From assembly GCF_902652985.1 (NCBI RefSeq), contig NC_047025.1:10726001-10790000 (forward strand): a stretch of 64,000 nt of DNA. The letters run 5' to 3'. Shown here piece by piece: positions 7,013-49,839 of the stretch (within the stretch, counting starts at the first letter, position 1; each line of letters begins with the position of its first letter). The notes beneath the pieces were generated by a model, which saw only the letters and a list, made by a program, of their open reading frames with translations, was not told the DNA's origin and searched no databases. The translations under genes were made by a program, and so were the position numbers. Origin of the DNA: Pecten maximus. Its lineage: Eukaryota.

Positions 7013-7120
7013 ACCGGAAGTGGATTATTATGGTATAGTGTACGCACTTGAAACCATCATTATCTACAGTGACGAATGATAGCGTTGGAGTTTAGGTTAT
7101 ACACAGCATCCAACATGGCG
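7013..7120 (+). promoter_or_regulatory. VIRMA core promoter: ETS/GABP site (CCGGAAGT 7014-7021) and YY1-like AACATGGCG at the start codon
   Basis: Motifs typical of TATA-less housekeeping promoters, about 100 bp upstream of the ATG. Confidence 0.55.
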
Positions 7121-7186
7121 GAGACCGGGCCCGAACTAGAATTATTGTTTTTCGACACATTTTCACATGAAGGGCAGGGAGCCGAG
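7115..7186 (+). CDS. VIRMA: VIRMA exon 1 (MAETGPELELLFFDTFSHEGQGAE)
   Basis: caacATGg start context; GAG|gtgagg donor; LLF.DTF.H N-terminal virilizer motif. Confidence 0.92.
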
Positions 7187-7660
7187 GTGAGGCACCGCGA
7201 TTAAATGTATAGCATACACATGCAAAAACTTGCAATAGGCTGGATGCTTCTCGACCTAAAACAAAATGGAAATTCTACGGTTGGGTTCTGGCACATCTGC
7301 ACATGACATGTTTCCTGCTACCATATCCTGCAACTTGCTCCATGACAAACTGACAAATGACTCCGCAAATAAAATTTATTTTCACAGTCTAAATTTTGCT
7401 TTGAAAGGCTAATACCAGTTGAGTTCTGGCGAATGGCAAGCCAGCGTTAAATGGTCAATAGTTATGGATATCCATAGATAGTTCAAATATTCATAATTCG
7501 ATTTCCAATATTTGTGAATAGTCGATTTCTGATACTGGAACATTGATCTATAGTATTGTATACAATATCCTGATTACTCCAGAATGTATCTATTCTAATT
7601 TTAAATATATTGGTATCATGAAAGGTGTCTCTTGTTGCGGGTGGTGGACAGGGTGCAGCC

Positions 7661-7692
<32 letters not shown>

Positions 7693-8941
7693 GAACACAC
7701 CCTCAGCTTACTTAAGCTACAAAAAATAATTAATAACCGAATAATTATATTTTTTAAGCAATTAAATCTTGACCTGGTCCAGTTCCCTCGACCAGTCATC
7801 ATCCATGAAGTACGAGTGATCCCCCTGCAAACCAGAGTCCAGGCAGATGTCCCTGGAGGTGTCAGACTCGGGTAGGTCCCAACATTATACATATCTTTAA
7901 ATGGGAATTATTATTGTTGCATGATTCATGTGATTTATCTCGATCTACATTTAATTTTCTTGAGTCAGCAAGTTAGTAAATAGGTTTTGTTACAGCAGTT
8001 TTATGACATATTTAAAGCCTCCCTGTTTTCGTAACATATAAATTTTGACAAAATCACAAAAATATGTTGAACTATAGAAGATATACCCTAATAATGATAT
8101 ATTATGAGAATCAGTACCATGAAAGTTTATCATAATTGCAGTTAAAACCGAAAAACTACCCACTGATTATGGGGAATCTCAAATGTGGTTCTCCACTATG
8201 GGGCGCCGTTTTACTATTTATTCCCATTTGGTGATATCACCTATTCGAATAGGTGATATCACTTATGAAATTTTATAAGTGATATCACCTATTCGAATGA
8301 GTGATATCACTATGGACCGCCGTTTTACTATTTATTCCCATTTGGTGATATCACCTATTCAATCCGTGATATCACCTATTCGAATAGGTGATATCACTCA
8401 TTCATTTTTCAAATAAGTGATATCACCTATTCGAATTGGTGATATCACCTATTCGTTTCATTAAGTGATATCACCTATTCGAATTGGTGATATCACCTAT
8501 TCGTTTCATTAAGTGATATCACCTATTCGAATGAGTGATATTACCTATTCGAATTGATGATATCACCTATTCGTTTCAATAAGTGATATCACCTATTCGA
8601 ATGAGTGATATCACCTATTCAAATGGGTGATATCACTTAATGAAACGAATAGGTGATATCACCTATTCGAATAGGTGATATCACTCATTCGAATAGGTGA
8701 TATCACTCATTTGAATAGGTGATATCACCAAATGGGAATAAATAGTAAAACGGCGCCCCATACTCCACTCTCTATATGTAAATAAGCCACAGAAAATATG
8801 TCACGCACGCATGCCCAAACTGGTTTGTTTTGAAGAAAGGCAGACTGGCAATTGAAGACGGGCTCAAACGCATCAGAAGCTCAAAGTCAATCAGACATAT
8901 TGTTGCTGCTGCAAAGACAAAGAAAAGGAATGGATTGAGCA

Positions 8942-8978
<37 letters not shown>

Positions 8979-11900
8979 GCTTACGACTTACATAGTCAAT
9001 GTGAATCTGTTAGACAAAAAATAAAGAAAGGTTAAACGTGAAATGCCAGCATCAATTGGTAGCGAATCTTTAATTCTTGGCCTTTGATAAACAAACCCAT
9101 GATTTTCTGTTGATCATCAGGGTTTGTTAACTGGCGTGCACATTTTATTTTTAGATGTTTATTACATAGTCATACTTTACATACCATGTATATGAATTGT
9201 TGACATAACTGACCAGATTTGACAGAAATTAAATGAAGTTGAATCTGTAAGGGATTATGAGGTTTAACTTGATAAAATATTTTCATTTATAAGCAAAAGC
9301 ATAGAGAGGCTTTAAAGTGAAAATTTAAAACATTTTTTAAAGTTATAAGATTAACGAATTCATAATTATCAGGGAATCCAGTAGACCAATGAAAGTAGGT
9401 ATGTTTTGGACTCCCTCCAAAGTCATATTTGACTCTTGAGTTTGAAGGGAGATGTCTTTTTAAGATATGTTTTGACCCTTCAGATTTCTGAGAAATGGTG
9501 ATTTGACTTTTGAAATTGCTAAAAGTTGAGTGTCAACTGGATGCCCTGATTATATTAATGTTTTTTTTTTCATTTTTGCAGTGCCACAAATCCTTCCAGT
9601 TTTAAACTTGAATTATTTGTCAACAATTTGAGCAAGCCGAATGCTGCAACATTTGAAAGACTTGGAGTGTAAGACCAAAAAATTTTTATAGTGATTAAGA
9701 AACAACAAAAATAGGTTGTTGTGTATATGCAATTATTATTTGAAATACCTGTGGACTGTACAAGGCAACACAAATTAGATTGATGTAATTGTGGTGTCTG
9801 TCACAGAGAACAAAATCTGTAATCAGGTTCTAGCTATAGTGCTATTTATTATGGATAGAAATGTTTTTTTTACAAAAGACAAAACAAACATTCATACAAC
9901 ATGTTCAAACTCATATCATAACATTCTGTATTTAAAAATTACACAACTGATATTGTAGAAGTCTAGAAGTCCATGGTTGAATACCATTTTCATCCTTGTT
10001 GTGACCACATACAGTAGATATTTATGTGTAACACAAATATCTGCATAATTCATCCAATCCAAAAATAGGACAGCTCAGTATTATTAGTGTCCCAGTCTAA
10101 ATGATATTGTGGGTTCCGATATGATTTCAAAATAGTTCTGACAAAAAAATGAATGAATATTTGATATTTTAAAAAAGTATACTGTTTCTTACTGTAAGCG
10201 TGGTAATTTTTGTGTGGAATGAATTTCGCGATTTCGATATGCAAAGTTTACTTAACTATATGCGGCGGGGTAATTTTCGCAATCAATTCATATTCGTTTG
10301 AAGTAAGATTTTACGGAAATTGATATCAAAAGTATATGTGGGGGGGAAATTATACGTGTGGGGGAAATTCTTGCGATCAAAAGGACTCTACGTAATTAGC
10401 GTAAATTTCCCCCTCGCATACATTTCCATGTTTACAGTATTTCGAAGTCATTTGATAAACCTAAATTATTGTACTGTACCAACAAAATAAGAAGAAAAAT
10501 AAGGAAAAGAAAGATGAGGTGGTCTGTACAAGAATGTTTAAAGTTTGTACTTGTGTTTTATATGTTTGTCAGGTGAATGGCTACCCCAGTATGCAAATGT
10601 TAAACCAGTTGTTTGGTTTTCAGATTAGATTACAAACAGAATGTGGATATCAAGCTACGAGCAGAAGGAGCAGAGGTGAGTGTGCTTTGATGAACTATTT
10701 AATGCTCTGTATAAATATGTATTTATGAACATGCATTGTAACTCACTATAACTCTTTGGTTTGTTTGTTTGTTTTTGTTTAACGTCCTATTAACAGCCAG
10801 GGTCATTTAAGGACGTGCCAGGTTTGGAGGTGGAGGAAAGCCGGAGTACCCGGAGAAAAAAACACCGGCCTACAGTCAGTACCTGGCAACTGCCCCACGT
10901 AGGTTTTGAACCCCTATAACTCACTCACCAGAATGATAAAGACTTTCTATATGTGATCCACACCAAAGCCGTCCTAAAATGACTACAGCTGTTGATAGGA
11001 CATTAAACAATACTAAACCAAGCCACACTGAAGTTACCAGTAATACATCAGTTGTCTGTTTGACCTTTATTCAATAGTTTGTATTTTCATTATTTGTACA
11101 TGAACTGTTGTGTTTGGCTACAGATTCCGACAGATGGACTGATACTGAAGGGATGGTACACCACCATCACCATTGCTATCTATGGGACGTTGACCGTGGT
11201 GAAGCCAGATCACTCCTCGCCACCACCCCCACCACCTCCACAAGTCAGACAAAAGAACCGTAAGCTATGTACACAGTGTGCAGTAAATCCTATCATACAT
11301 TTAATTTATCAATATACCCAATATTTCGGTCCGACTACCATACCAGGTATGCTGTTTTTCTGTATTTGTATTGCAAGATTAACTTGATATTTCTTAAAGA
11401 TGCTACATGTCTGACAAAGAGTAATGATGATCAATTGAAAACAAGAATAAGCTGTTATAATTTTTTTATACAATACCAAAAGCTACATGCTCTCTGCTAA
11501 TACCAACTTCAATTTCTATTGCATCTAATAAAAAGTTAATCATGCACTGCCTCTATATTTCAAGCTTTTTTAAATCAGTGGTGTATCATCTTCATTTTTT
11601 AAGTTGGAATTATTTCATGTTATTTATCAGCTATTGAAACAAGAAGTGCTGGGTCCACAGAGATGGCACGTCCAGATTGGGAGCAAACACCAGCAAGACC
11701 TGTGTCAACAACAGCCGATATTCCGCGGTCTGAGTGGGAGCCTCCGCCCCCTCGGGCGGCGCAGTCAAAACCTCCACAACAACACCCCTTAGACTATATA
11801 CAGCAACAGGTTCAACTTCAGCAGAAACAGCAGCAAGCTGCACACTCCCAGCCTCAGCCTCTCCCCAACATGTCTCATCCCCCTCCAAATCTCACACATC

Positions 11901-14900
11901 CACCCCCTCAACCAGTGCCACCCCCACAGACTAATATCCCCCCACCACAAATCCCCGGACAACCCCCATCTGACATGTACAGAGGTGTGGAAGCTCCATT
12001 TGACAGAGCTCTTCACCCAACATCCCAACATAGAGACATAATGCAAGAATTCATTCAGAGTCCTAAGCTCGGACTCATTGACACTCGTGATGGAGGTCAC
12101 TTCGATGGACGTGAGCCTCCCAGGGATTTTTCATCAGAGAAACGTGAGAACTATGAGAGTAGAGATGTTTATGAGGAAAACAGGTCTCAGGGTTCATATG
12201 AAAAAGACTACAGGCCACATGGAGATTCCAATAGTCGAGAAAGGGAATATGACCAATCTAGAGAGAGTTCTAGGGATAGGGAATACAGAGGGAGGGAAAT
12301 GGGGGAAAAAGAACGAAGGGAGAAGGTTTGGGAAAAGTTTCGTGAACGAGAAAGGGAACGTGATACAGGGTTTAGAGATAAAACAAAAGACTATGGAGAT
12401 CGAAGTCCTAGGGACTGGCCAAGAAGTCCTTCAAAACGGAATTGGTCAAGATCACGTTCCCGATCACGATCAAGATCTAGGTCAGACTCCAGATCACGAT
12501 CAAGGTCTAGGTCAAGGTCTTATTCTAGATCAAGATCATACTCAAGATCTCCAAGACGATCTTCTAGATCTCCAAGGAGGTCATTTTCAAGATCTCCACG
12601 AAGGTCATATTCAAGATCCCCAAGAAGGTCATATTCAAGGTCACCAAGGAGGTCCAGGTCGCGTTCAAGAACTCCAAGAAGGTCTTATTCCCCAAGATCC
12701 CCAGGACCATTTAGATCTCCAGTTTCAAGGTCAAGGACACCTTCAGAAATGCATCCAAGGTCACCAATTCACCCAAGGTCACCTGTTCACCCAAAGTCAC
12801 CAGTGCACCAAAGGTCGCCTGCACCTATACAGACTCCGCTATCCCCTCCCCAGGAGCTGCCCCAGCCAGAGGAATCTCCGATCCCAATCATCAGACAACC
12901 TCGGGAGCCACGAGAGGCCCTTAGGGAACCTTCACAACCCCACGAAGAAATCATGGAAGCAGGTAACACAGAAATCTGACAAATAAATAAAAAAAAAAAT
13001 TTTTTTTTTTTAGAGGTCTTTTCAAAATATTTCTTCCGATATAAATCATACCATATTTATCTTTCCATAGGTCCTGGATGATTAGTAAACACATGATGCT
13101 GTGATGAACATCTCTGCGAAAATAACAGAAATGTAACAGGAAAAGGAATTTTAAGTGTCTATAAGAAGAAGTGGTAAGACTTATCTATAAATGTATGTTC
13201 ATAATTTCTCTGTTTTGCAGGGGAGATCATCGATGAGGTGGGCCAGCCCATCTTTGACCAGCTAACTCCTGATCAGTCACCGGGTCCCATGTTTTCTTCT
13301 GATGGAGAAATCCAGGTATAAACGTTTCTCTTCATCAAAACATCTATTTTTTTAATTTGTCAAGTCTGGGAAACCTGGACATTTTTTTTATTGACTTACA
13401 AAACATATACACTTCCTTCATTGTCACATACCATAAAATCAACATAATATAAGATATGAAGTAAAATTACAACTGCTGTATTTTTTGTTTTATATAATGT
13501 ATTATTCTGTAGGAGGTGGATGATACGTATGAAAATATCTCTTCTGATGATGAAATGGAAATCGATGGTGATGACATGATGTCGGTAAGTGTATCTATCT
13601 AATAATTCTGGTTCATGTTCAAACGTTTTAAAACACATTGTTATTATGTCCCTGTGTAAAGATAATAATTATAATAATAATGATTTTGAGTTTTATATTA
13701 ATAATAATTTGTAGTTTTATATTTAATGATAAAGATTTGGAGTTTTGTTTTTATTATAATTTGGAGTTTTATGTATCGCTACATCACAGCAGCATAGCAG
13801 TCTCAAAGCAGTTGACAGATTCTCAAGATCTCACTTTGTTTTTCCTTTTTGATTATGACCTGTTTTCAAGAACATACACTCAATATTATCCATTCTATTG
13901 AAAAGACTACTCTTTCTCCTTATGACCTTTTTTTTCAAGATCACACTTTGTCATATGAGTTTACAGGGACATCCACTTAATACAATATTCTTCGAACACT
14001 TTTTTTTCAAACAGGGCTAATTTTCCTGTTATATCAGTTAGTTAATATTTTTAACTCCACTTTACAATGTAATATCTGCATAGCAGAATTATCTAGATAA
14101 CTCTGTATTTCACGTGATATTATATTATTGTTTCCAGAATATGGACATGTACGAAATGGTGGACGACTATGCTACTATCTCCTTCAACCCGTTCCAGTTT
14201 GAAGTGACAAAACTTGTGGTATGTATAAGATGTACTTAAAAATTCAGAGTCCTGAATATTCATTTTTGTAAAAGTAAAAAAAAAATCTTGAATATAATTG
14301 TTCAGATGTAATTGAACTCATTGCAGTCTCGTTCTGCCTTAATAAGGGTGACCAATCTTCTCAGATTAATTCAGAGGGCACTTTCAGTTTTCAGTTTACA
14401 CATTGAAAGACCAATTTATTGTCTAGACAGAATAAAACAGATATCAAGTGTTTTATATGATATAAAAAAAATTGAAAATTGATGTAGATATTTTACTCTA
14501 AATAACACATCGACAATTGAAGGTAAGTGTTTCAGACTGTGGACTTTCAACTTCTGATATTGAGTCAGTCACTACCTTTGTTAATGAAGCTGAAGGAAAC
14601 TCACATACCCCATTTCCTTTTCAAATTCTAAATAAGAATGTTGATTGTTCTGCATATTGCGATAAATTAACAAATTTTACTAAAATTTTATTGCATTTGC
14701 TTTGCATATATAGGCACTGCCAGACGTCACACTGACCAAGTATGAGTTGGAGTTATCTGCCCTTCAACAGCAGACCGACAAGGCTACAGACAAACCTGCT
14801 ACAGAAAGACCGTCTGAGGCAACAACATTACTGGAACTTGTGGATGAGTTCTCCTCTTCTGACCATCATGGCAGGTCAGTCATATTTGTATTAAAAGTTT

Positions 14901-17900
14901 AACTGCTTTGAATATTAGCAATTCATTTCCTAACCTGTCCGAAACAAGTGAGTTTATCCAGTAGTACAGGATCCTTTGTCCGTTTTACATTAACTTTTCC
15001 TTTAAAATAATTGCTTCTCAATTACCGAGAGCACTATGATAACGATATTGGACCAGTAGCATACTTGGATGAAGGTTTGTTCAAATGAATGACCTTGATC
15101 TAATACAGTGTACATTTGTACTTTCAAAGTTGCATGATTCAAATATGTTAAAAATCTTTTTGAGTATTCAAAGACACAGTGTCATGATATTTTGCCCAAA
15201 GCCTGCTTAGACGAAGTCCTATTAAGTTTTTTTTATGAATGAATTTAATGACACAGAGGTCAATTGTAGCAGGAAGACTATCAAAATCCCCGTGATATTT
15301 GATGTGTGACATTTACTGAAAAGGAAGGCTTTTATTTAGGGGTGTAAGTCTGTACTTCACAAGCTGAAAAACATATGATAGGTACAGGACTACTGGGCCT
15401 TTTGTTGATAATTGTGGCTTTGTAAATTTGACAAAAAGGAAAGTAACAAGGTATCATTATTTGATATTACAGGTGGATTGAAGCACTAGAAAGTGTCCCC
15501 AGTCTCCTGGTGAAGGGCTTGTCTTATCTGCTACACAGAGAAAACAGAACAGGTTGGTATACTCTTCTATAGAGGATTAATGAGAAAATGTTTCATTTGG
15601 GTAATAAAATATCATATTAAATGCCATTGGCTGGTCCGGTTGCAATTGTGCAGTGCAACAAAACTGCCATTCACCAATGTAAGGGAGTTTGCTTTCTTGA
15701 TCAGATGGCAAAATGTATGGAGTTATTCGGGGCAGCCACATTTGTTTTTCCAAGGTACCTTTGCTTGTTTCCATCCAGGCCAAAAAGCCTTCTTTATTAT
15801 TGATAATTGTTGTACAACAAATAAAGATTGTTTCTACTACTAAAGTTGATGATTGAAATAGAATTTCTAATTTGAGGTTTATTTGTGTTTAGATGTACTT
15901 GACCAGTTACTAGATTGGACATTGGAGGGACTGGACTTGGTCAAGGCTATGGCACAGCCTGAGACTGCCCACAAGGTCCGCCACCTCAAGATGGGTATCA
16001 AACTGGCTGGGAGTATGTGTACCTGTAGTCGGGATATTGTCCTCAAGTGTCTGGTAAGTGGATTATCTCCCTTTGATTTTTGACTCAATTTGTTTTCAGG
16101 TTATTGTATTAGAGAGAACGGTGTGTTGCAGAAAAATGGTTATATGGACAAAGTAAAATGGACAGAAGGTAGATAAGATTCTGCCATATTTATCTGGCAA
16201 CAAGCCCTTGTCATGGCAAGAGCCCCACTTGATTTGCACTCTTCTCCTTCTAGAATATATCTTCCGGTCACTCGATTTGGAGCTCTTCTGCTTCTGGAAG
16301 ATCTTCTACCTCTTCCGTCTCGAAGCTGGAAGATTTCTCTTCCAAGATGGCGGCGAGTGATGAGTTTCACTACAGAAGGATATATGACACATACATGCAT
16401 GTGTTTGTATCATAGTATTTGAGAAAACTTAAAAACTTGTTAATTTTGGGTTATATTCTCCCGGTTTACTCGATTTACATCTAACGGAATGCAATCTTCT
16501 TAGAAGGCTTCTCTTCTGAGAAGAGTGCAAATCGAGTGGGGCTCTGGTAAGAAGCCTGTTATTAATGTCTTTTTAGGGCTATTCAATAGAAAATGGATGG
16601 ACTAAGATTTGTCCAACAGGGACGTCCCACAGGTGATTTAATTCAAACATTATCATAATAATAAGCTATGTGGTCCAGAGTTCCCACCATGCATAGACTT
16701 TCTTTTTTCTTTTTTTTCTGCAATCCTCCATTAGGATATATATTTTACTGAATAGCCTGTAAAAACTAACAAATGCTGCCTCACTTTCAATGCAGTAGGC
16801 CCTTAAGTAAATGTTTATGTGTGGGGCTTGTAACAGGATAAATATGGTGTATTTGACAAGTCTTGGGAAAATATTTAAATGGAAATATTCTGAATTCACA
16901 AATTTATAGTGATTGATTAATTTTCTCAAGTGTTAATTAAACAAAAATGAATAGAATTAAAAAAAAAAAAATGGACTGTGTGATTAGTAATAATAGTGTG
17001 GTATGATATTAAATTAAGAATCATGGAACTTGACAGGAATTTTCATGTCTTGAACATCGTTATTAATTTTAAAACATGAATAACCTTTCATGCCAAGACT
17101 TCTGTTCAGTTAAATATTAAGTTTCATCAATTGCCCTGAATGTCTTCGGGTATCCAGATGAGGAACCAAGTATCCATCACCAACACTAGTACTTTCCAAT
17201 TGAAATCATGATCTTTGCAAAGAATTTGCTGTTACATGGATGATTAATTCTTGTGTACACCTGCTGAAATGTCAGTAATTGTATAATAATGATATTGTTT
17301 CTACAGAGCATGGACATCCAACACAAGCTACTAGATCTGTTTGTGGCACCTTACATGTCCTTCTCACTCAAACTCCAAATTATACGTGCCATTGACCAGT
17401 CAACACGCTTTACCAGTGGCATGCAGTGGTTCCTAGGCAAACACCCACAGCAGAGTGCAAAGGCCAAGGTCGAAAGTGACGAAGGTCAAAAGGTCAAGGA
17501 AGAATCAAAAGATGCACAGGAGAGCTGTTATAAAAGACTTATTGAATGCATGATGAATAAACAGGTATGTTTGAATGTTATTCTTGAAACAAATATTTAT
17601 TTCATTTCTTTTATTTTAGATGACACTCTTTTGTATTTTTTTTCATTTAGGAATTTTGTTGCTTTCAAAAATTATTTTGTAGATGTTGCTTATAAATTAT
17701 TTTTAGACCCGATTTGACCTCACTATAAAGTAACAGAAAATGATACACTTTAGAAAGTTGAAGTACTCTTTCAACCATTTCTACTGTTACAGTAAAAGTT
17801 TCCAGTAACAGAACATACATTGTAGTACTTCTTTTCAGTCATTACATAACATTTGAATTTCCCATCACTGAATGGCTTTCATATTATTTCTGAAAATTTA

Positions 17901-20900
17901 CATATTTCACATTTTAACAATTATATGCTTGCAGGTTGCCAGAGTAACCATAGCAATGGCTGCCTTTTTGAAGAAAATTCATATTTATGAGTTGTTGTCT
18001 AGTCTAACAGGAAGTGTGAAAAGGTATGTAGCATATGTATGATTTTTAACTAGTTTTACCAGTAATTGCCAAGATAACCCAGAGGACCTTTGATGCTTTT
18101 CCATTGAATGTCATAATAAATCTTACAAATATAAACCTGGTACACAATATACCACCCGGCTAGAGAAAACTTCTCTTTAGCTCGATCCTTCAGTGTCCTG
18201 GGTTAGATCCTTAGCGGAGTCAGTGAATTAAATTTAACTGATTGTGTGCTCTGTTACATAGATATGGGTATGTTATGTCATATACTAGTACATGAAATTG
18301 CTTCTATTGCTTTCATTTTGTAAAAACAATATTGGAAATGTTTCTGTGTCAGAAATGTGAAAATCAGTTAGAATGTGATCTTTGACGCCAGGTTACATTC
18401 TTGTTGCTATATCAGACCTTCAATCCTACCATATTTTGCTGTTGTTATTTGATAATATTTGCTTACGAAACTGTTTACAAATGTATAAATAGATCAAAAA
18501 AGAGAAGAAAAAAACGGTGAACAACACGTCATTCACATCTGAGCATAAAAATTTGCAGACACAAGTGAAGTAAATAGAAAGCACTGTTCGCCCCTTGTAG
18601 GAAGACTTTGGATTTTGTCCCCTGGCCAAGACATACAAAAGTCTATAAAAATGCTACTCCTGCTTAGTGCTCAGCAGTTTTTAAAGTGGGAAAATGGTAT
18701 GTCTGATGTCAGTATAATGTGACCAGGTGGGGTGTCCTGCTGGGTGTCTTCAGCAATATGCTTCGGTAAGGTATCACTCTAAAGTCTGTATCAGCTCTGC
18801 GCTATCACAAGATGAACATGAACCTTCCACAGCCTCCCAAAACACACACTCACCACACACATGCATCGCGCACACAGCGTAAGCCGTCCTCAAATGACCT
18901 TATCTGTTGATAGGACGTTAAACAATGCAAGACCAAAACCAAACCAATTTGTCAATATGGAAATTATGCAGAGAACATAAAAGATCTTACTATTCCTTAC
19001 AGTATTGTTGAGCGTTTATCGTCGCTGGAAGAGGAGGCTGGTCAGAAGAAGGATGGAGACAATACTGACCTTGACCTTGAGAGCCTGATTATGACCAGTA
19101 CAGTGACCAACACAGAGATTGACACATTGGTCAGTGGTCTGGATGAGATCACCAAGGTCATCGCCATAGCACCCTACATGATTGTAAGTTCAGCCAATCA
19201 GATTCCAGATCACAATTATTTTGTTTTTGAGAATATTGCAGTGAAATGTTTACCTGGTCTTTGTGTTTGCAGGTACAACTTCTTCACCTGTGACCTTATC
19301 ACTTTCTGCATTCAGCTTATCACTACATATTTGAAAAGATGTTTATCTTCAGCACAAACGGACTGAAATTGTTTTCAGGCTTTTGAAAATGTCTGTTTCC
19401 TTAGTCAAGTAAATAGTACAATGCTGGAATGTTGACTATTGTTCACTATTTGATGATGGGTAGAAAAAGTAACGTTAGCTGTCTATATTTGTTTGAGACA
19501 CAATTTCATCCAACTTCAACAATGCAGACAGTCTCATGGACAGGTGATGTTTAACCCGTTCTATCCCTTTTATTAATGAGTCATCCGTATGATCATGTTT
19601 TTAAATCCAGAGGCAGAATGGATAAAACACTTATTGCCTTAACATGGCAAAAGCCGATTTCGAAAACTCAAAAACTAGCAAACACAGACTTTCAATGGCT
19701 TATGATAAGATAAACATCTTTTCAAATAATATTCAACAAAATTAATGAATCTCATCATGAACATTATGACTATAATCTTTGTTGTGTGTTTCACTACAGT
19801 TTAAAGTTAACAGAGAATTAAATCTGCTTTATGGGTTCCTTTAATGCTCAGCTTTCTATTTTCAATTTATACGGTTTTAGGGCCAGCCAGGACGTACCCT
19901 CCCTGGAAACACATTCGAAATAAAGACAAAACCATATGACCCGTATCCCAATCTGTATCACTTTGCCCAGACCAGGTAAGACTGATATGTCTTTTTCAAA
20001 CAGGATTTTAAAAAGAAATATTTCTAGTATATATATAATGTAAGAGAATCACATCACATCCTAGGGCATCCAACCAAATCGCGTTTTACATTCAGACTTG
20101 GTGTACCCCTAGTACAGAGCTACCTCGTTCACTATATATGTCATGGCATTTTACATAAATACATAAACTGGGGAAACATTCAGTGTTCAATCAATTGATA
20201 GAATTTAATGATCACATATCTCATCAAAATGACACAAGCCACCACGTGTATTTGTAGACGCTCGTTTTGATTGGTTGAAAATTTCATGCGTAAAAGGTGG
20301 TAATTTCGAATCTCCACTAGAGGGCCAGAACTGACGTCTATATATGCCAAAGATTCGTGGAATGTAAAGTAATCAGAAACCTTGGCTAGCAAAGATATGG
20401 TTTCTTGAGACATACAGCTAATAATATCATACTGTTAGAATGAAATAATGTCTTCGGTAGTCCCTGTGTGAAAAAAAACTGGAGTCCTCTTGTGGAGCAG
20501 ATGTTTGGTTGGAGTAGCCTTCAAATAATGGGCCACTTGATGCTCATAATTTCTCTGATGAATTACAGAGGATGTAAAACACATTATTCATCTATATATA
20601 GTTTAGATAACAGAAATGCAGGGTTAGCACGGGCCTTAAGAAAGTCTTGAATTTCACCTTGGGCCTTGAAAAGCCTTGAATTTCACCTTGGGCCTTAAAA
20701 AGCCTTGAAAATTGGTTTACAGCCTTGAAAAAGCCTTGAATATTAAGGTTTCATTAGGATAAGTGAAACCCTGGCCACTGATCATTTGGATTCAACTTTG
20801 TCCATGTCGCCTCCCCTACAGACGTTAATAATTTCCATTTCAAGTTGTATTTTGATCAAGTGGATAGTTATAAGTTGCTTTTTGTTCTCTTGTTCCCTCT

Positions 20901-23900
20901 CAAGATGACTTAGATGACAGGTAAAATGGGCCTTGAATGTTTAATTAAGACATTGAAAAAGCCTTGAAATTTGGTTTGACAAAATCCGTATGAACCCTGA
21001 AATGTGACGTTCTTGTTTGAAGTGGTCTGCTGGAGGCTGTGTTTGTGCTGGTGTCTGTACCCTCGACAGCTGGACATCACCAACTGTTCCCCGCCATAAA
21101 CAAGCTCATGAAAACATTGGTGAAAACACAACAGGGTCTTCTGTTCCTCTCAAGCCGGCCGGACGTCATCAATGGTACCATACGATCTGCAGCTACACAA
21201 GAAAATGTTAGTAATGATTCCACATTGGATTCCTCTTAATATCACTTTGGTTAATGTAACATTCTTAATATTATTGTATCATTTTGGTTAATATCATGTT
21301 CTGATTAAATCATGTTGTCCACTTCATATTGTCAACTGTTTAGGAGAAAAGGAAAAAAGGAAAAAAAAAATAGCAAAACCAAAAATAGTTAAAGGTATCA
21401 GTATTGAGCAGTGTCCAATGTCTCACCAGAGTGACTGATACTGGGTAGTTTGTAGAAATGTTTCAAGTTTTAGACATAGTTGTAAACTTAAGTTTTTTTA
21501 TGATGTTTTAAAGAAAAGAGAGGAACACAGCTCTTTCACAACTTTTTTAGATAAACGTGTATCATGGTTAACGTTATATGTAAATTTTCCTGTGTGATTG
21601 TATATGCCAGGAATACAGTCGGGATGAACCGGTGGACGATAACCCTCTACACAGACTAGGACTAGAGATCTTCCATGACTTGCTCGCTGTCCAGTTCATT
21701 GACCAGCTCCTTCAGTACCAGACTAAAGGTCAGTACAGATATCATTTGGTCACTGGTGTTAAGTTTGACCACTCTCAGTGACTAGACAGTAATTTTGACC
21801 TGTCCTGGTCACTGATGGTCAATTTGACCTGTCCTGGTCACTAGTGGTCAGTTTGACCTGTCCTGGTCACTATTGGTCAAATTGGCCTGTTCTGATCCCT
21901 TATGGTCAGACTGACCTGACCTGGATACTAGTGCTCAGTTTGGCCTGTACTGGTCACTTGTGGTCAGTTTGACCTGTCCATGGTCACTACTGGCTAGTTG
22001 AACAATAACAAATGGACACAAAAATCATAAAAAGCATTTAACATTTATGAGATAGTTTATCAGACATGAATCAAATATAGTGTAGTTATTATTATAATAA
22101 TAACGAATTGTTATCTGATACAGAGGAGAAGGAACTGGATGAAGTGGAGCCAATCGAAGCCCTCCATAATCTGTACACAATGACGTTCACCCCGGTGGGA
22201 CGGGAAGCAGTCGTTCATGTCCTCGGCCTGGATGACAATCTGACAGCCATTCTTCCTTTTGTAGAATATACAGGTAGGTCTTGTGTTTATAGTGTCATAA
22301 ACTTCTGATGTCATTTTAGATATCTTATTACAAAATATTGATACTCATATTGAACCATTTGGATTCATTGATTATAATTTACCAAATTGAATATTTTTGC
22401 AGGATAGTTGTCTATAAATAAAAAAGAAAAGAAAAGAAATTGGTAGTAAATATGCATTTTAGTTTTGCAGAAATACAAAGTAACAATTTTCAATATTAAT
22501 TTGTCTATACACATTATATGTGTAACTAGAATTATACAAAGTATCAAATCATGGAGAAGGCAGATTTTTGTTGGTGAAGAAATTCTGACACAAAAAAAGA
22601 GGCCCCTGCTACAAAGAGCCATGCAGTGCTATTCTTCCTTACTCTCAGAGTTTTTAATGATCAATAAGTCAAACTGTAGGTTTTGTTTTATTTCTGTCAT
22701 ACATGTTTTACTATTTGAAGGAAATAATGTATAGAAGGAGTGATCCAAACACTAATCCCAACATGGAGCTTCGTCCAAAAATTTATTCCTTCAGTTGTAC
22801 AATACAACTGAAGGAATACATTTCTGGACGAAACTCTGTGTTGGGATCACTCCTTCTATACGTTATTACCTGGAGTGAGACCTCCAGTATCTTTCAGGAT
22901 CCACGGCAGTTTCGTCAGGATTGACACTTAACTACACCTATAGGGACGTTATGTCTCCACCCCCCCGTAGTATTTGAAGGAAATTTTACTATTTCTGTTT
23001 TCAGGGGTGGAAGAAAGAGATGGACGTCTTAAGAAGTCTGTCTGTGCAGGATACACCCTTAACTTACTGTTGCTGCTGATTAGACAGTCCAATAATGTCC
23101 ATATTTACCAACAGTTTGGACAGCGCCTTGTGGAAATTGCAGAAAAGGGTAAATATAAAACTTAGGTCTATTTGGACACTATTTATAATAGTTTTATGGG
23201 TAATGATGCCCTTTAACCACTTTTTTGTGGATATCGTATTTTTCCTGTAATAAGCCCAGAGGACCAAGATATAAATTTTAATTAAAATAGGGGTTGGGCT
23301 TATTGCAGGACAATTAAATTTGTTAGCATTCAATCACATTGAACTTAGTTCAAGGTTAATTTTGGATTATTGCCGGATATATACAAATGTATGTAGTGAT
23401 AAATGTAACATTTATTTTTAATCATAAAAATAACATTCTACAAATGAAAACAAAAAATATCTATGCAAGTATAAGATTCAATATAATTTTGTGGCAAAAA
23501 TTACAAGATCAAATGACTTTTAACGTCTGAAATGATCAAATTTTAAAAATTCAGATTTAAAACTTTACTTTTGTTACAGACTTCAGCAGTAAGCTCCTTG
23601 ATCTGAATGAATGGTTGTCACCACTTAAGAGTATTACAAGCTACAACCATGAGGGAGTGGCTTCTGCCATTACCCAGCTCCGCTCCCACTCCGACAACCT
23701 CCAGAAAATTCCCCGTCCCTTAGTCACTGTAGTGAGGATACTCCGACACATGAGCATCGCCCCGGAGTGCAACTACCCAAATGGTAAGATATATTATGTT
23801 AAAAAGTACGGAATCTTACAAAGGATGGACTCGTAAGATTTTGGCATGGTGACATGAGTTATGAAATACGATTGGGCAAATCAAGTGTAAAATGTGGTGG

Positions 23901-26900
23901 GACACTTATAGTCCAGAGGTGTAAAAACATGGCAGGGCAAATCAAGTGTGAAATGTGGTGGGACACTTATAGTCTAGAGGTGTAAAAACATGGCAGGGCA
24001 AATCAAGTGTAAAATTATACAGAAGTTTTGTGTGAAAATATGTCTGAAAGTGTAAACATGTGGCTGGGAGCATAACGTAAACAATATGTGAAATGTGGCA
24101 TCGGAATGAAATTATAGAAGTTGTGGCCTGTAGAGATAGTATAAAAATGTGGCATAAAGCTGAAAAATCCTAACTGTGGCAAACTGATCATGACTGTGAA
24201 ATACAGTACAAAAAAGGAAATATAAATTGATAATAAATTAAAAGTAGATATTAATTATGATGTCCTCGTTTACTTCAGATGAACCTATTGAGATGAAATA
24301 CAAGTTCAATCTGTTAGAGATGTACAGTGGGGACTGCCTGCCAATATTTATCAACATCTTACAGGTAAATATTTATCATACACCAGGTAAATCTTTGTCA
24401 TACAGGTAAATATTTATCATACACCAGGTAAATCTTTATCATACAGGTAAATATTTATCATACACCAGGTTAATCTTTGTCATACAGGTAAATATTTATC
24501 ATACACCAGGTAAATCTTTGTCATACAGGTAAATATTTATCATACACCAGGTAAATCTTTGTCATACAGGTAAATATTTATCATACACCAGGTAAATCTT
24601 TGTCATACAGGTAAATATTTATCATACACCAGGTAAATCTTTGTCATACAGGTAAATATTTATCATACACCAGGTAAATAGTAGTTATTGTAGATAAATC
24701 TTTGTCAGACAGGTAAATATTTGTTATACCGGAAAATTAATACTTTAATCATACACTAGGTAGATAGTCTTGATACAGGTAAATTTTTGTCGGGTTAAAA
24801 GTCATCCTGCAGGTAAATCCTTGTCAGACAGGTAAATCATTTGACATACAGGTAAATAGTTGTCATGAAGGTAAATATTTATTATACAGGTAAATACTCA
24901 TCATACCGGTACATTTTTGTCAGTTAGGTAGCTGTTACAGGGAAATGAAAAATATATGAATGATGCCATGAATAAAATAATTTATTTGCAGCTGCATCAA
25001 AGTAATTTGATTTTGTATGTATATAAGGATAACACAGTTGATTTAGTTTGTACAAAATATGCAATCGAAATGTTGAAATGATATTCTTAAAGAAATATTT
25101 TGTTGTCCACCTTTTAAGAAAACCTGTGAGTTTCTGCTGCGACCATGGCAACAAGGGTTCGTGCCTAGCTCGGACCAAATCTGCTACCACATCTCGGTGA
25201 TAATACCGACAATGAACATGATCAGGGCCACGCTGGCTAATCTCATTCAGGCCAGAGGAGTAGAGGTAAGGATCCATTCATTTGATTTACACAAGATAGG
25301 TATAAAAAGTGCAGATTTCACATAAAGCATTTTCACTTTAGGAAATGTTAATTATAAATGTTTAGGTATGACTAAACTTTTACAGGCTTGTTATGTACAT
25401 GGAGTTGTTCTTACAACACATACAATATGAACAGGGTTTAGTTTGCACATTTTATAAGGAGAAAAAGGCAAAAGTGTTCAGCTGGCATAGAAATATTAAA
25501 AAGTGCAAATGACATTTTGATAACTGTTTTAATATTGAAGATTTATAAAAAATGAAGAAAAGGCTTATTTGTGGACAGGGGCTAATGTGCAGATAAATTC
25601 TGTCATATTGTTATGTGTATTAAAATCTTTAATAATTTTCCAATGTAGACTTAGTTACATCAATTGAATAAATATAGAGATATAAGGCAAGAAAGAAAGA
25701 AAATTCAATAACTTGGTTCTCATGCCAATTTTCTTTTAAAGAGATGCAGCAGGGAGACTTTTTTTCTTTCGCAATTTACATGAAAAAATGAGACATGAGA
25801 GAAATTTTTTTTTATTGTTTACTATGAAAGTTGTTATTTCCACACAAGATTTTGGTACTCTGTTATAAAATAAACATACATTTTGTTAATTAAGCACAAA
25901 CAGTTATTGGTTAATAAAAAAGAATGTGTTTTATTTATGTTTGGTGTCATCTGGCCTGAAATGAATGCTGTTTTCTGAGCAATTGTCTGTCATGAACATG
26001 ATTTAAATAAATCATAAACTATAAAATGCTTATCCCGGTACATATATTTGTCCTTTATTTAAATGTTTTTCGCAAGTTTTGTGACTAACCAGTAAAAATC
26101 AACATACAGGCTGATTTTCTGGATTTCTTTAAGGTAGCAGCTGAAGAATTCCCAATTTTATAAAAAAAAAACCCACATTTTTATGATAAAATTGCGATGC
26201 AGCACCCTTAAATGAGATGCCTTACCTTTGGACATCTCGGTGTTTGACAAACTTGAGAACAATTAGAAAACATCACAGTGAAGAAATTCTAACAATGAAT
26301 TGCTATTGTGCAAGGGGAAAAAGCCAGAGACAGACGTTCCAGTAATATACCCAGAGTTATACCTCAATCAGTGTGGTGAAAATATATCGGGTACCAAGCT
26401 GAAATGAAATGGTTCATATATGAGACACACACACACATATTAAGCAAAGTGAATTAATTTGGCTACAGCATGCACAGGTAATCAAAAATAGATTACAGTT
26501 TTGTTATCCAATTGCAATAATTTTCACACGTAAAAGAAATTTAACATTTGCACAGTATGCATCCATTTTTTCTGATATAATTATATTTTTCTCATTTTAA
26601 GTACACTCTTCTAAATAAATTCAATAGTTTCTTTCATACAAAAAAATAGGTTTATTTGCAGTGTTTTATACTTGAATCACAATCTTATAATTACTGGAAT
26701 AATGGAAAAAATTTGTTGAAGGAAATTAAGATATATCAAGTAGGTACTCCCACCAAACAAGCATGAATGAATTCTTTAACTGTTCAAAACTACAGTCGAG
26801 ACTGTCTGAGCGACCCCCTGTATTAACGACTCCCTGCGTTATTTACGACCGCCCAATAATATTTACTATATAATTGATCTGTATTAAGCGACCCCCTGTC

Positions 26901-29900
26901 TAACCTGACAAGCCACCGTGTTTTTACAGTCCCAGGTGATTAGAAAGTCTGTATTAAACGACTTTGACACCTTCATCAGTCGTCGTCACACATGAGCACG
27001 CAGCATTGTGAACAACAATACAATTCATTACAACTTTCACCTGGCAGTAGCCGCAGGCTTTTCAGCTGGTTATATGTTGTTAACAGAACAATTAAACTTA
27101 TACACAAACACATATTTGTAAATCTGAGGTGTTAAATGAGCTCACTTTTACGATCTGGTTGTGCTTAATGGGTTATTGAGAGTAGCAGTAAAAAGAGATT
27201 TACCTCCCACCTTGTGAGAGCTTATGATCAGAATTCTTTAAAATGTTCTCTACGAGTTCATCCAGAGTGTAGTATCTAAAGAGTTCAAGCTCCCATTTGC
27301 TTGGTGAGGGCTCATGATCAGAATTTTATAACTGTTCACGACTAGTTCATTCAGAGTAGTAATTAAAGAGTTTTACCTCCCACTTGCCTGGTGAGGGTTC
27401 ATGATCAGAATTTGTAACTGTTCACAACTAGCTCATTCAGAGAAGTATTTGAGGAGCTTTACCTCCCACTTGCCTGGTGAGGGCTCAGATGCTGTCCACA
27501 GTACTTGTCCATCCTCCAGCCCAATCACTCCCTGCCCCTGTGAGCCACTGCACAGGGTTTTGATATGCTGCCCTAATCCACTAACAAGCTCTACTGTATG
27601 CCTCTTCATGTCGGCCACGACCAAGTTTCCATTTCTGTCGTAAGCTATTGATCCTGGGCCAAATCTTTCTCCTGCAGATTTGATTCCTTCGCCTTTATAG
27701 TGGGATTTCACTTGCAACTTTCTGTCATAAATGATGATTTGTCCTATCCAGTTATCCTCACTGGAGTCGTCATTTTGTAGTATTTCTGCACTCAGTACTG
27801 CTATGTTGCCAGTCAAAGGGCATTGAGTTATCTCCCCTGCTGAAGTGATCCCCGATATGTGGCGTGAGCTTGAGTGAAGCATAACACCTTTATCCGTGTA
27901 AATGCTTACTTTTTTTTCAGAGCCCAGTACAATAAATTCGTCTTTGGTCACGCAAATACTATACAGAGGGTCATCCGTTCTGAATTTGATTACTGGCATT
28001 TTAGATGAAGATACTTCACACACACATTTTGCTTCTCTACAGCAAAACCAAAGGTTTCCTGTTTTCGCTGATCTGCTGATGTCACGAATTTTGTCTTGGT
28101 ACTTGATTTCCTTCCTCGTCTGCCCCTTGAAGTCTATAAGCTCAAGAATGTTGCTTTCAAAATCGCAGACCCAGGCTAGACTGTCCTGTGTGGGATAGAT
28201 GGTGGTGATATGGTGTCGAAATTTGAATTTTGATTGCACAACTGGTTCTCGAAGTAGTTTGATTTTGACCACTTTTTCCTTTTGGGCTTGGTCAGTGGAA
28301 ACGGTGCCGACGGCTTTTTTCAACTGGTCTAGCATGTCTTGACATGGATGAAACTGAGGCCATTGTTGTTTTGGCAAATTTGGGATCTTTGAGTCAAATT
28401 TTTGAATATCTGATACAACATCATGTGTAAGAATGGTTGATCCTGTTTGAATTGTTTGTTTACATTCATTCAGAAGACTCTCCAGTGATGTTATTCTTCG
28501 CTGCAGTTCAGTGATGTGGGTTTTAAGTAAATTCTGGTTCAGAACTTCCATCTTGTCACAGATTTTTTTATTTTCTGAGATCAAATTATCTATTTCTTTT
28601 TTACACTTTAGCCCCTGGTCAGTCACTTTTTCACGAATTCCACTGAAGTACAGACTGTTCTTTGTCAGTTCTTTATGGGTCAACTGAATCTCCATTTTCA
28701 GTTGAGGCAGGGCATGTTTTTCAGTGTTATTAATAAATACCTCCAGTTTACTGTTTTGCTGTGTTTTCACACTAGAGAGTTCCACAAGTTCGTGAGATTT
28801 GTGTGTTGTTACGCTACATGTGGCACAAATGAGCTCTTCATCACAGTCAATACATATAAAAATGATCTCCTTTTGTCGGTGATTTGGACAGTTAGAGCTG
28901 CCTTTGACCCTTATGGGTAGCTGTTCTCCTTTATGAGCAGACGGTCGTCCAGTTGCCATGGTGATTATTATAGTTGCTGCTTTAAATTATGTATGTTGTC
29001 TTTGATATTCTATAAATCTGTTGCACTCTTAATTCATGATTCCATTGGATTAGACGTCTTTTGTATTATTCTTGGGGCACAGATATTTAAAAATACATAG
29101 AACCAAATTATATATCTTGATGAGAGCAAGGCAAGGCATATCATTCAGTGATATTAAAAACAGCCAGTTTTGTCCATTTTGTAGAGTGAGTTAAATGTAA
29201 TCTTCTCTTGTTGACAATCACAACTAATACTCAAAAGTGAAGACACAGTCAGGAAAGAAACATGAATGATATTCACCAATATCTCTTATTCACTTCCTTG
29301 TTCATGTATCCGATCCTCTACCAATGTTGCAAAGCGAGCAGCCATTATGCAATTGGTAATCTCTATTTGCCTTCTGTCAGATTTGCTCCTTTAAAATCCT
29401 GAACTTGATTGCATTCTGACAGGTCAATGTTTCTCGTTTTCTACAAGCATCTCCATTGGTGTAAAAAATAGCCATTATGCTCCCTAGCTGTATATCTAAA
29501 TACTGTTGTGGTGACAGGCAAAATTCATTTTACACCATCAGTACTGTGGTGAATAAAATGCTATGAATAACAGCACAGCTCACGTAAAACAGGTTTTTTT
29601 TTTTGCTTGTTTCTTATCACAAAAATCAATTTTTAGATTTATTCTGTGCAGTGTTGTAGGTGATATGATTTTAACCAGGAAGTGCATACCTGTCAATATC
29701 TAGGTACACACTGGTATCATCATGTTACATTTTTAACAAATAAATGTATGGGATGACTCATGGAGAGAGAATTGAGATAATCTGTGGTAAAATGTATTGT
29801 CAGCATTCATGTAGGATTGTATGAAAAAAGTTGCACATAGTCAAGTTGTTGTGGGTTTTTTTTTTACAAGTAGAGTATTGCCAGGTATACATTTCAAAAT

Positions 29901-44614: not shown

Positions 44615-45383
44615 ACATTGCCAAAATCAACTGAACTTTTTTAAAATCAGACATTTTTGTTCCCCTTAAATATCTAGGAATAATAATTTCACAACAGTGT
44701 TGTGGAGAAGTTATGAATGAGCTTCAAATGTCTGAAAATACTGATGAAAAATTCAGTCTTTGAAAGTAATGTTGGGAAAAGTAATTTTCCTTGTCAACAA
44801 TATAATATTTTTATTTCTGTTCTCAAAATGAACAATTACAGATACAAGGTTTAATAGCTCTTTTTTTCAGAAAGGAAGTATTTCTGCGGTATTAAAGGTA
44901 TCAACTTCTGATAACACAGAATAAAATCAAAATTTAGATATTATGTGAAGAAATTTCAAATGAATTTTAATGACAACATGTTTTTTTAAAAGAATCATTG
45001 AGTTGAGTTCTTGAAACATTTAATGAATGGAATGATTTGACAAGGGAGGTAATCAAGTGCTCTACCATTGGATTAATGTGCAATTCCATGAAGTTATTTC
45101 ATTTACACAGCTCCTTTATATTGATATTCACCAGTAAGCATGATAATGTATGTGTTTAACATATGTATTTACACTGATATATAGTCGTGGTGATAAAGTT
45201 TCAAAATATCTTGAAATTAAAGCTGTTGATTAAATCACAATTTTTGACCACCACGATTCAACTGTTGTTGTTATAGGAAATACATTTTTGTATAAGACTG
45301 AATTTTTAATCAACTTGTGTTGGATTCATTATGTTGAAGTGGAATTATTGTTTTGATATGATGAATGCTATCTTTCCACAAAG

Positions 45384-48993: not shown

Positions 48994-49839
48994 TCAAATG
49001 GTCGTGACTTTGCCAGTGAACGATGACGGAAGCTGTGTACGACTTGAACCAGCCGCTTGTCCTTTATCTGTTGCGCCCCCTCGGGCCTGGCCTTTCAATA
49101 GCTCCATGAGCTCTTTTTTCTCTAGCTCAAGTCTCTCTATGTCCTGTCGTCTTTGAATCTCCAAATCCATTAAAAGTTTCATCTTTTGCGACATCCGTGA
49201 TAGTTCAGATTTTAATTCGTCAACTTGGCATTGGATTATAGACTCTTTCTGAACCATGTGTTCACGCTGCATATTCAAACGAAGTTCCATCTCGTGCCGC
49301 TGTTCCTGAATTTTGCAAGCCATTTCCGACCGAAGAACATCATACGCGGTTCGAAGTTCAGCGATGCAATTGTGAGCTGCGTCTTCCGGTGAAATCATCA
49401 ACATACCACAACCATTAGAACATTCTTTCGCTCTGAATTCACAATTGTCCAAGTGCTCAACCAAATCTTTCCGCGAAACCATCAGTTTGCATTTCTCGTT
49501 TGGACATGGTACTGTTCCCAATGGACATTCAGATTCATGGGTATGCATAAATTCCAAATCGCCAATAAACGTACATCCCAAGAAATGGTTGCAACATTTT
49601 AGTTGCATTTTGTTGAGATCGTTTTTCATGTATCGAAAGAGGGGTTTAAGAGCAGAGAGCGATAGCTGTTTCCGGTCCTCTGGACAGCGCGTGTTTTGGA
49701 CAAGCCATCCTTCGATGCACGTGCGACAGAACGCATGCTCACAAGGAGCCTGGACCGGGTCTTCTAGCACGTCACGACAGATGCAGCACAGCAGACCTTC
49801 GTTGACGGTGACAACAAACCTGTCGACATCATATCCCAT
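48994..49839 (-). CDS. RING finger / TRAF-type zinc finger E3 ubiquitin ligase, RNF151/NRDP1(RNF41)-like (281 aa)
   Basis: MGYDVDRF N-terminus; C3HC4-type RING CCICRDVLEDP..CEHAFCRTC..CPEDR; TRAF/SINA-type zinc fingers; C-terminal coiled coil; no USP8-binding C-terminal domain; splice acceptor at 49862-49863 just upstream of the ATG. Confidence 0.9.
   Translation of the reverse strand: MGYDVDRFVVTVNEGLLCCICRDVLEDPVQAPCEHAFCRTCIEGWLVQNTRCPEDRKQLSLSALKPLFRYMKNDLNKMQLKCCNHFLGCTFIGDLEFMHTHESECPLGTVPCPNEKCKLMVSRKDLVEHLDNCEFRAKECSNGCGMLMISPEDAAHNCIAELRTAYDVLRSEMACKIQEQRHEMELRLNMQREHMVQKESIIQCQVDELKSELSRMSQKMKLLMDLEIQRRQDIERLELEKKELMELLKGQARGGATDKGQAAGSSRTQLPSSFTGKVTTI

What the first reader, a model, noticed from the sequence alone, without database searches (positions are those of the whole stretch)
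11631..12962. VIRMA carrying a large SR-protein-like RS domain
Seen: exon 6 inserts about 440 aa after the N-terminal virilizer domain. It has a P/Q-rich stretch, an RE/RD mixed-charge stretch, an (RS)n tract and tandem SRSPRRS[Y/F/S] octamers plus HPRSP repeats (about 12400-12820), and the protein also ends in RGG-rich exons. Known: as I recall it, vertebrate VIRMA has only a short Pro/acidic linker here, and RS/RE tracts drive nuclear-speckle targeting and SRPK/CLK phosphorylation. Inference: in this lineage the m6A-writer scaffold may itself carry a speckle-targeting, phospho-regulated splicing-factor module, coupling m6A deposition directly to splicing.
Basis: partly seen in the sequence, partly recalled or inferred. 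Interest (0 to 1): 0.7.

Follow-up and report, generated by a model that had tools for sequence, protein, structure and literature searches.

The report
Bivalve VIRMA carries an RS domain
In scallops and related bivalves, the scaffold protein of the enzyme complex that methylates messenger RNA (VIRMA) has a long arginine/serine-rich segment that the fish and lamprey versions lack, which likely helps hold the complex in nuclear RNA-processing bodies under kinase control; this role is untested.

Summary
Real, but not peculiar to this genome. 11631-12962 is coding exon 6 of a pectinid scallop VIRMA gene. RNA contigs join it to exon 5 (4 of 4 runs) and exon 7 (8 of 8). It encodes, in order, a P/Q segment with a mollusc-wide HPLDY helix, an Arg/Glu/Asp mixed-charge stretch, a 100-aa RS domain (40% S, 37% R) and HPRSP repeats. 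It is an expanded version of the disordered linker between the SUN/VIR_N domain and the ARM core (536 aa, against 189 in catfish). Long RS blocks (55 aa or more) occur in all 7 full-linker pteriomorph and unionid bivalve proteins examined, and also in a nemertean and calanoid copepods. Shorter RS or mixed-charge linkers are widespread in invertebrates; catfish and lamprey have neither. The exon is an in-frame cassette, and an Ostrea edulis RefSeq isoform skips it exactly. Seven literature searches found no description. Likely role: phospho-tunable speckle and condensate targeting of the m6A writer (inferred by analogy). Direct coupling to splicing is unshown, and the human writer already reaches speckles without such a domain. 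New variant of a known protein, moderate interest. Side lead: a pan-animal SPOC-docking-like motif in exon 8.

The parts
7115..11259 (+). VIRMA coding exons 1-5 (7115-7186, 7759-7871, 9582-9668, 10624-10675, 11124-11259): SUN/VIR_N beta-domain (Hakai-binding in human and fly) and poly-Pro start of the linker
   Evidence: RNA joints; Pfam PF15912; PDB 7vf2_A; Hakai binding to residues 1-130 from PMC8213727 passages
11631..12962 (+). Exon 6, 1332 nt, phase 1-1 in-frame cassette encoding most of the disordered SUN-to-ARM linker
11633..11971 (+). P/Q-rich segment (27% P, 17% Q) with the HPLDYIQQQ motif at 11783-11809, found in 18 of 206 linkers, 17 of them named or window molluscs and one unnamed cephalopod-like sequence; predicted isolated helix in the Pinctada orthologue
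12110..12445 (+). Arg-enriched mixed-charge stretch (net +2; best 60-aa charged fraction 0.67), with pteriomorph KVWEKFRERERE motif at 12323-12358, predicted single helix in the orthologue
12446..12745 (+). RS domain, 100 aa (40 S, 37 R, 11 P, net +36): (RS)n tract, five SRSPRRS units, then an RTP site
12749..12820 (+). Four H[PQ][RK]SP hexamer repeats (Ser-Pro sites)
13513..13584 (+). Exon 8, carrying the acidic YENISSDDE motif; this motif class is in 161 of 206 animal VIRMA linkers and resembles SPOC-binding LSD motifs
14138..40213 (+). Exons encoding the ARM-like core
   Evidence: RNA joints to 25119; model (49-50% identity to Mytilus and Pinctada VIRMA)
41102..44615 (+). C-terminal exons: SRPPSMHVDDF motif and RG/RGG-rich tail ending RSFTK-stop (general to animal VIRMA)
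   Evidence: exon ends from sequence only, not from RNA

Best explanation
Exon 6 encodes an expanded linker of the single scallop VIRMA gene, predicted to be disordered, with a mixed-charge stretch followed by an RS domain, that likely acts as a phosphorylation-tuned targeting module drawing the m6A writer into nuclear speckles and RS-protein condensates. Shown: the exon is spliced in, the module order is kept across bivalves, and it sits between the Hakai-binding SUN domain and the ARM core, outside the folded parts. Inferred: SRPK would phosphorylate the (RS)n tract and CLK or other proline-directed kinases the Ser-Pro repeats. This would shift the region from net +36 towards a balanced mixed-charge state and set its residence among SR proteins and nascent RNA. 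Skipping of the in-frame exon, seen as one oyster isoform, would give a writer without the module.
For: Splicing. One VIR_N locus in the genome. RS criterion met, 97 aa (own implementation of 20-aa window, S and R each >=20%, sum >=70%; thresholds from PMC9479744 passages; result). Charged fraction rises from 0.67 to 0.87 if RS/SP serines count as negative. Greig et al. (10.1101/771592 passages) show Arg-rich mixed-charge domains drive speckle incorporation and RS domains act as phospho-tunable ones. Protein-level constraint: 5 of 6 listed variants in exon 6 are synonymous (variants, where one search's table was cut). The five identical SRSPRRS units differ at 34 of 70 codon pairs, so they are old at DNA level (synonymous by the way units were picked). 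The same module order holds in Mytilus, Pinctada, Crassostrea, Tegillarca and Potamilus. The AlphaFold model of Pinctada 1-828 has the RS part at pLDDT mostly <50, with SUN and ARM folded. Human VIRMA 1-333 is unresolved in cryo-EM (PMC9652331). The writer is a known speckle resident (PMC12453181).
Against: No localisation, phosphoproteomic or functional data. The unphosphorylated mixed-charge stretch falls just short of the published 0.7 threshold (0.67). Greig et al. report that an RRM synergises with RS domains for speckle entry and that RS20 alone is diffuse; VIRMA has no RRM. Catfish, lamprey and hymenopteran VIRMA lack both modules, and human WTAP and ZC3H13 already bring the complex to speckles, so the module is dispensable elsewhere. 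In Drosophila the CLK kinase DOA acts on the writer through Fl(2)d, not Vir (10.1101/2024.11.25.625202). No exon-6 skipping joint was seen in the 4 scallop runs whose joint table was complete.
Confidence: 0.55

Rival explanations
1. The RS/mixed-charge linker mainly binds RNA or the 3'-end machinery (CFIm, CPSF5/6) and serves nuclear import, biasing m6A to 3' UTRs or influencing polyadenylation, with no special link to splicing.
For: Human VIRMA is reported to act through CPSF5/CPSF6 near stop codons and 3' UTRs (PMC8213727 passage; PMC11877144). New SR-related proteins are often tied to 3'-end processing rather than splicing, and RS domains can be import signals (PMC9479744 passages). CPSF6 has its own mixed-charge domain (PMC11472059, search listing only).
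Against: Vertebrate VIRMA does this without the module. This overlaps with speckle residence and is not exclusive of it.
Confidence: 0.22
2. The linker is a tolerant spacer between the SUN domain and the ARM core in which Arg/Ser/acid repeats expand and shrink by slippage, with selection only against disruptive changes.
For: Linker length runs from 78 to 1060 aa across 206 sequences. Long RS blocks need 5 changes on a 37-taxon quick tree, one due to the skip isoform. Lineus and Tubulanus, and Mya and Potamilus, differ sharply.
Against: Fixed module order and short motifs are shared across molluscs. Repeat units are diverged at silent sites, and most variants are synonymous. Repeated convergence on Arg-rich chemistry at one position.
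Confidence: 0.18
3. The exon belongs to another gene or is a prediction or assembly artefact.
For: Low-complexity sequence; no Pfam match for the exon.
Against: GT-AG joints on both sides in RNA contigs of several studies. Orthologous segment present in annotated proteins of 6 other bivalve genera.
Confidence: 0.01

Closest known systems
VIRMA/KIAA1429 and Drosophila Virilizer (MACOM scaffold of the m6A writer)
   Same: SUN/VIR_N domain, disordered linker with acidic YExISS[DE] motif, ARM-like core, SRPPSMHVDDF motif and RG-rich tail; single locus; falls within bivalve VIRMA on the tree.
   Different: Linker is 536 aa against 189 (catfish), 253 (lamprey) and 274 (D. mojavensis); 97-aa RS domain against 0 in those three. 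Human sequence was not in hand; its unresolved 1-333 region comes from PMC9652331.
SR-related proteins (RS domain without the canonical RRM layout, e.g. SRRM2)
   Same: Meets the 70% S+R in 20 aa criterion; has (RS)n and Ser-Pro repeats.
   Different: The RS domain is internal to a methyltransferase scaffold; function not tested.
Canonical SR proteins (SRSF1-12)
   Same: RS domain over 50 aa with RS/SR dipeptides; a pure-RS part followed by an SP-rich part as in SRSF1 (recalled, from no call).
   Different: No N-terminal RRM; not a member.
Arg-enriched mixed-charge domains of speckle proteins (Greig et al.)
   Same: R/E/D-rich, near-neutral stretch next to the RS segment.
   Different: Charged fraction 0.67 in the scallop, under the 0.7 cut; 31 of 206 linkers pass it, including Pinctada, Lottia and amphioxus.

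Membership tests
VIRMA/Virilizer | N-terminal VIR_N (SUN) domain | tested here: met
   PF15912 E 1e-16; three exons over the cut-off; 7vf2_A
VIRMA/Virilizer | ARM-like core orthologous to other VIRMA | tested here: met
   49-50% identity to Mytilus and Pinctada, 89-95% to other scallops; tree
VIRMA/Virilizer | Binds WTAP, ZC3H13 and Hakai and supports m6A deposition | not testable with these tools
   Known for human and fly
SR-related proteins (Cascarina and Ross definition) | 20-aa window with S>=20%, R>=20%, S+R>=70% | tested here: met
   97 residues covered (own script without LCD-Composer's dispersion filter)
SR-related proteins (Cascarina and Ross definition) | RS phosphorylation and speckle localisation | not testable with these tools
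   Needs phosphoproteomics and imaging
Canonical SR proteins | One or two N-terminal RRMs (definition recalled) | tested here: not met
   The N-terminus is VIR_N; no Pfam family in exon 6; no RRM-like fold in orthologue residues 1-828
Arg-enriched mixed-charge domain (Greig et al.) | 60 aa, charged fraction >=0.7, charge ratio 1:0.7-1.3 | tested here: inconclusive
   0.67 unphosphorylated; 0.87 counting RS/SP serines as phosphorylated
SPOC-binding LSD-type motif (exon 8, side lead) | Tyr-x-x-hydrophobic-pSer with adjacent acids, bound by a SPOC domain | tested here: inconclusive
   Resembles SMRT YETLpSDpSL (PMC11877144 legend); co-folding gives only weak support; phosphorylation not modelled

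The most novel reading that the evidence does not exclude
The VIRMA linker is a switchable regulatory hub. In bivalves, one in-frame cassette exon adds or removes a whole SR-like speckle-targeting domain from the m6A writer, giving splicing-controlled writer isoforms. A pan-animal acidic phospho-motif just downstream is an unrecognised docking site for the RBM15/Spenito SPOC domain, which would apply to human VIRMA too.
Probability: 0.2. Interest if true: 0.68.

Novelty: new variant of a known kind. Interest (0 to 1): 0.4.

Why it matters
Why the m6A writer sits in nuclear speckles, and whether that matters for methylation, is stated as open (PMC12453181). Bivalves offer a natural variant in which the scaffold itself carries an RS domain on one skippable exon, so with-and-without comparison is straightforward, and the oyster is already an m6A model. 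The comparison also suggests that an Arg-rich linker is old and that the bare vertebrate linker may be the derived state. The SPOC-type motif, if real, would add a direct RBM15-VIRMA contact in all animals.

Tried and rejected
A homologue search with an ARM exon found nothing (limited to 2000 aa or less). I first read the species as Mizuhopecten yessoensis from a 100% match of one 68-aa exon, then dropped that: the core is 89-91% to it and 95% to Argopecten irradians, so only 'pectinid scallop' is claimed. Exon-6 skipping in this scallop was not seen (4 runs, full joint table) or among the joints shown (12 rows not shown); contigs drop rare forms, so this is no proof of absence. A second VIRMA copy was not found. 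The RGG tail as a special feature was rejected. A swap of RS content from RBM15 to VIRMA finds no support: the scallop RBM15-like ORF has ordinary RRM and SPOC content; scallop ZC3H13 and WTAP were not examined. A first regex linker definition failed on 16 of 71 proteins and was replaced by HMM boundaries, which placed 206 of 247 sequences of 600 aa or more; the 206 include isoforms and near-duplicates and were collected. The careful tree did not finish, so the quick tree is cited. Supplements of PMC9479744: 3 files searched with no hit for virilizer or VIRMA, one file not searchable, so its species tables were not seen. The original virilizer paper (PMC1461513) is not held. No earlier scan findings.
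Full report
OBSERVATION. The window holds a multi-exon VIRMA (virilizer) gene on the + strand, from ATG 7115 to a stop near 44615. It comes from a pectinid scallop: the core is 89-91% identical to Mizuhopecten and 95% to Argopecten proteins. Exons 2, 3 and 5 match Pfam VIR_N, the only such locus found in the genome, and exon 5 matches human VIRMA. 11631-12962 is coding exon 6: 1332 nt, AG/GT-bounded, phase 1 at both ends. Public RNA contigs join 11259 to 11631 in 4 of 4 runs and 12962 to 13221 in 8 of 8 runs. Two contigs carry the whole exon together with downstream exons. Two of the eight runs are on record as RNA, five are guessed RNA and one is of unknown kind; the GT-AG joints show spliced molecules.

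ANATOMY. The exon encodes, in order: a P/Q segment (11633-11971) with an HPLDYIQQQ motif; a mixed-charge stretch (12110-12445; 21% R, 17% E, 10% D; net +2); an RS domain (12446-12745; 100 aa, 40 Ser, 37 Arg, net +36) made of an (RS)n tract and five SRSPRRS units; and four H[PQ][RK]SP hexamers (12749-12820). RS/SR dipeptides number 64, against 24.3 on average and at most 39 in 5000 shuffles. Five of the six listed variants in the exon are synonymous. The five identical repeat units differ at 34 of 70 codon pairs, so the protein repeat is older than a recent slippage. An AlphaFold model of the Pinctada orthologue (residues 1-828, 40-row alignment) folds the SUN domain (9-128) and the ARM core (from about 580) with high confidence. 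The linker is unstructured apart from two lone helices, at the HPLDY motif and the Glu/Arg stretch. This fits the human cryo-EM map, which starts at residue 334 (PMC9652331, passages). So the exon is an enlarged version of the normal SUN-to-ARM linker, not a new folded domain.

DISTRIBUTION. Orthologues came, named through. HMM-defined linkers were placed in 206 of 247 sequences (isoforms included); 48 pass a published RS-domain composition test, in my implementation. Blocks of 55 aa or more occur in the window (97), Crassostrea virginica (93), Sinanodonta (79), Tegillarca (75), Pinctada (74), Potamilus (72), Mytilus (62), the nemertean Tubulanus (161) and three sequences of a Calanus cluster (55). 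Of the 18 proteins with the molluscan HPLD motif, 13 pass; Dreissena, Pomacea, Batillaria, Octopus and an unnamed cephalopod-like protein do not. Many flies pass only marginally (20-26 aa); D. mojavensis and the hymenopterans examined do not. None of the deuterostome sequences passes (amphioxus, Saccoglossus, Acanthaster, Antedon, Styela, lamprey, catfish), though amphioxus, Lottia, Limulus, a millipede and a cricket pass the mixed-charge test (31 of 206). Linker length is 536 aa here, 189 in catfish and 253 in lamprey. On a 37-taxon quick tree of the folded parts, the window sits among pteriomorph bivalves and long RS blocks need 5 changes, one of them the skip isoform. The simplest reading is an old Arg-rich linker, extended into a full RS domain in bivalves and separately in a nemertean and copepods, and reduced in vertebrates and Hymenoptera; ancestral states were not formally tested. 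The RG-rich tail is general.

CASSETTE EXON. Ostrea edulis RefSeq isoform X5 (P0005) has a 91-aa linker with no RS/SR dipeptide. Its junction matches what skipping exon 6 would give in the scallop, a single Arg between the exon-5 and exon-7 residues. This is one annotated model in one species. The named C. virginica, M. gigas and Mytilus isoforms whose linkers I printed keep the exon (one M. gigas UniRef model lacks most of the RS part), and I saw no skip joint in scallop contigs. Regulated skipping is possible, not shown.

MECHANISM. Arg-rich mixed-charge domains drive speckle incorporation, and RS domains behave as phospho-tunable versions of them (10.1101/771592, passages). The scallop stretch scores 0.67 against a 0.7 cut, and 0.87 if RS/SP serines are counted as phosphorylated. 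The writer complex is already known in speckles through WTAP and ZC3H13, with the role of that location open (PMC12453181, passages; PMC10915109, passages). I therefore favour (0.55) a phospho-tuned speckle/condensate-targeting module that reinforces an existing localisation. Every functional step is inferred. Against it: VIRMA has no RRM, short RS repeats alone stay diffuse, other lineages do without the module, and in flies the CLK kinase DOA regulates the writer through Fl(2)d rather than Vir (10.1101/2024.11.25.625202, passages). Rivals are a 3'-end/CFIm or import role (0.22) and a near-neutral spacer (0.18). Nothing here shows direct coupling to splicing.

SIDE LEAD. Exon 8 encodes YENISSDDE, of a motif class found in 161 of 206 linkers including lamprey and catfish. 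It resembles the SMRT motif YETLpSDpSL bound by SPOC domains (PMC11877144, passages). RBM15 SPOC pulls down VIRMA, but only a WTAP motif was mapped in the passages I saw (PMC9834408). Co-folding the scallop RBM15-like SPOC (L001) with the Pinctada peptide gave weak support: 0.37 against a best control of 0.02, runs agreeing in at least 64% of contacts, partner pLDDT 50. The mark was reached by 51 of 78 solved complexes and 2 of 108 mismatched pairs, but scores of 0.60 or under by only 5 of those 78 and by all 4 mismatches that passed. Peptides are untested in that calibration, phosphate was not modelled, and a like complex is solved, so the pass may be from memory.

NOVELTY. Searches listed no paper describing an RS domain in VIRMA or virilizer. 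A 2026 comparison that includes Mytilus, Ostrea and Magallana lists only VIR_N for VIRMA (PMC13629450, passages). Subscription papers on oyster m6A machinery (recalled) and the species tables of PMC9479744 were not seen and could mention it. The sequences themselves are already in RefSeq. Verdict: a real, apparently undescribed variant of a known protein, shared by many bivalves; it has an SR-related RS domain but is not a canonical SR protein. Interest 0.4.

Noticed in passing
window 13513-13584 (+): Pan-animal acidic YExISS[DE][DE]E motif in the VIRMA linker resembles SPOC-binding LSD phospho-motifs; weak co-folding support with RBM15 SPOC.
   Followed up: partly
window 11783-11809 (+): HPLDYI-Q helix motif kept in bivalves, gastropods, chiton and cephalopods and absent from the other linkers examined; partner unknown.
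   Followed up: partly
window 37719-37745 (+): Apparent one-base frameshift at the start of a VIRMA core exon relative to the Argopecten protein; probably an assembly error in a C run, not checked with reads.
   Followed up: partly
window 27433-28986 (-): Intronless B-box/coiled-coil/NHL (TRIM-like) ORF of 517 aa nested antisense in a VIRMA intron.
   Followed up: partly
window 48994-49848 (-): Intronless RING plus TRAF-type zinc-finger-like ORF of 284 aa downstream of VIRMA (label from reading the sequence, no family search).
   Followed up: no
window 8200-8770: Intronic foldback element made of many short inverted 'gtgatatcacctattcgaat'-type repeats, also present elsewhere in the runs.
   Followed up: no
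window 10750-10910: Very high-copy short interspersed element in intron 4 (contig depth in the thousands or more).
   Followed up: no
window 56780-57890 (-): Fragmented mariner-like transposase reading frames (label recalled, no family search).
   Followed up: no
P0195 (Tubulanus polymorphus VIRMA): Linker of 1060 aa with 91 Ser-Pro sites in RSP repeats, far larger than the bivalve RS domain.
   Followed up: partly
VIRMA linkers of P0232, P0233, P0115, P0234, insects, gastropods: An R-T-P-P type proline-directed kinase motif recurs in 117 of 206 linkers (loose pattern); in the scallop it appears as RTP inside the RS domain at about 12662-12682.
   Followed up: partly
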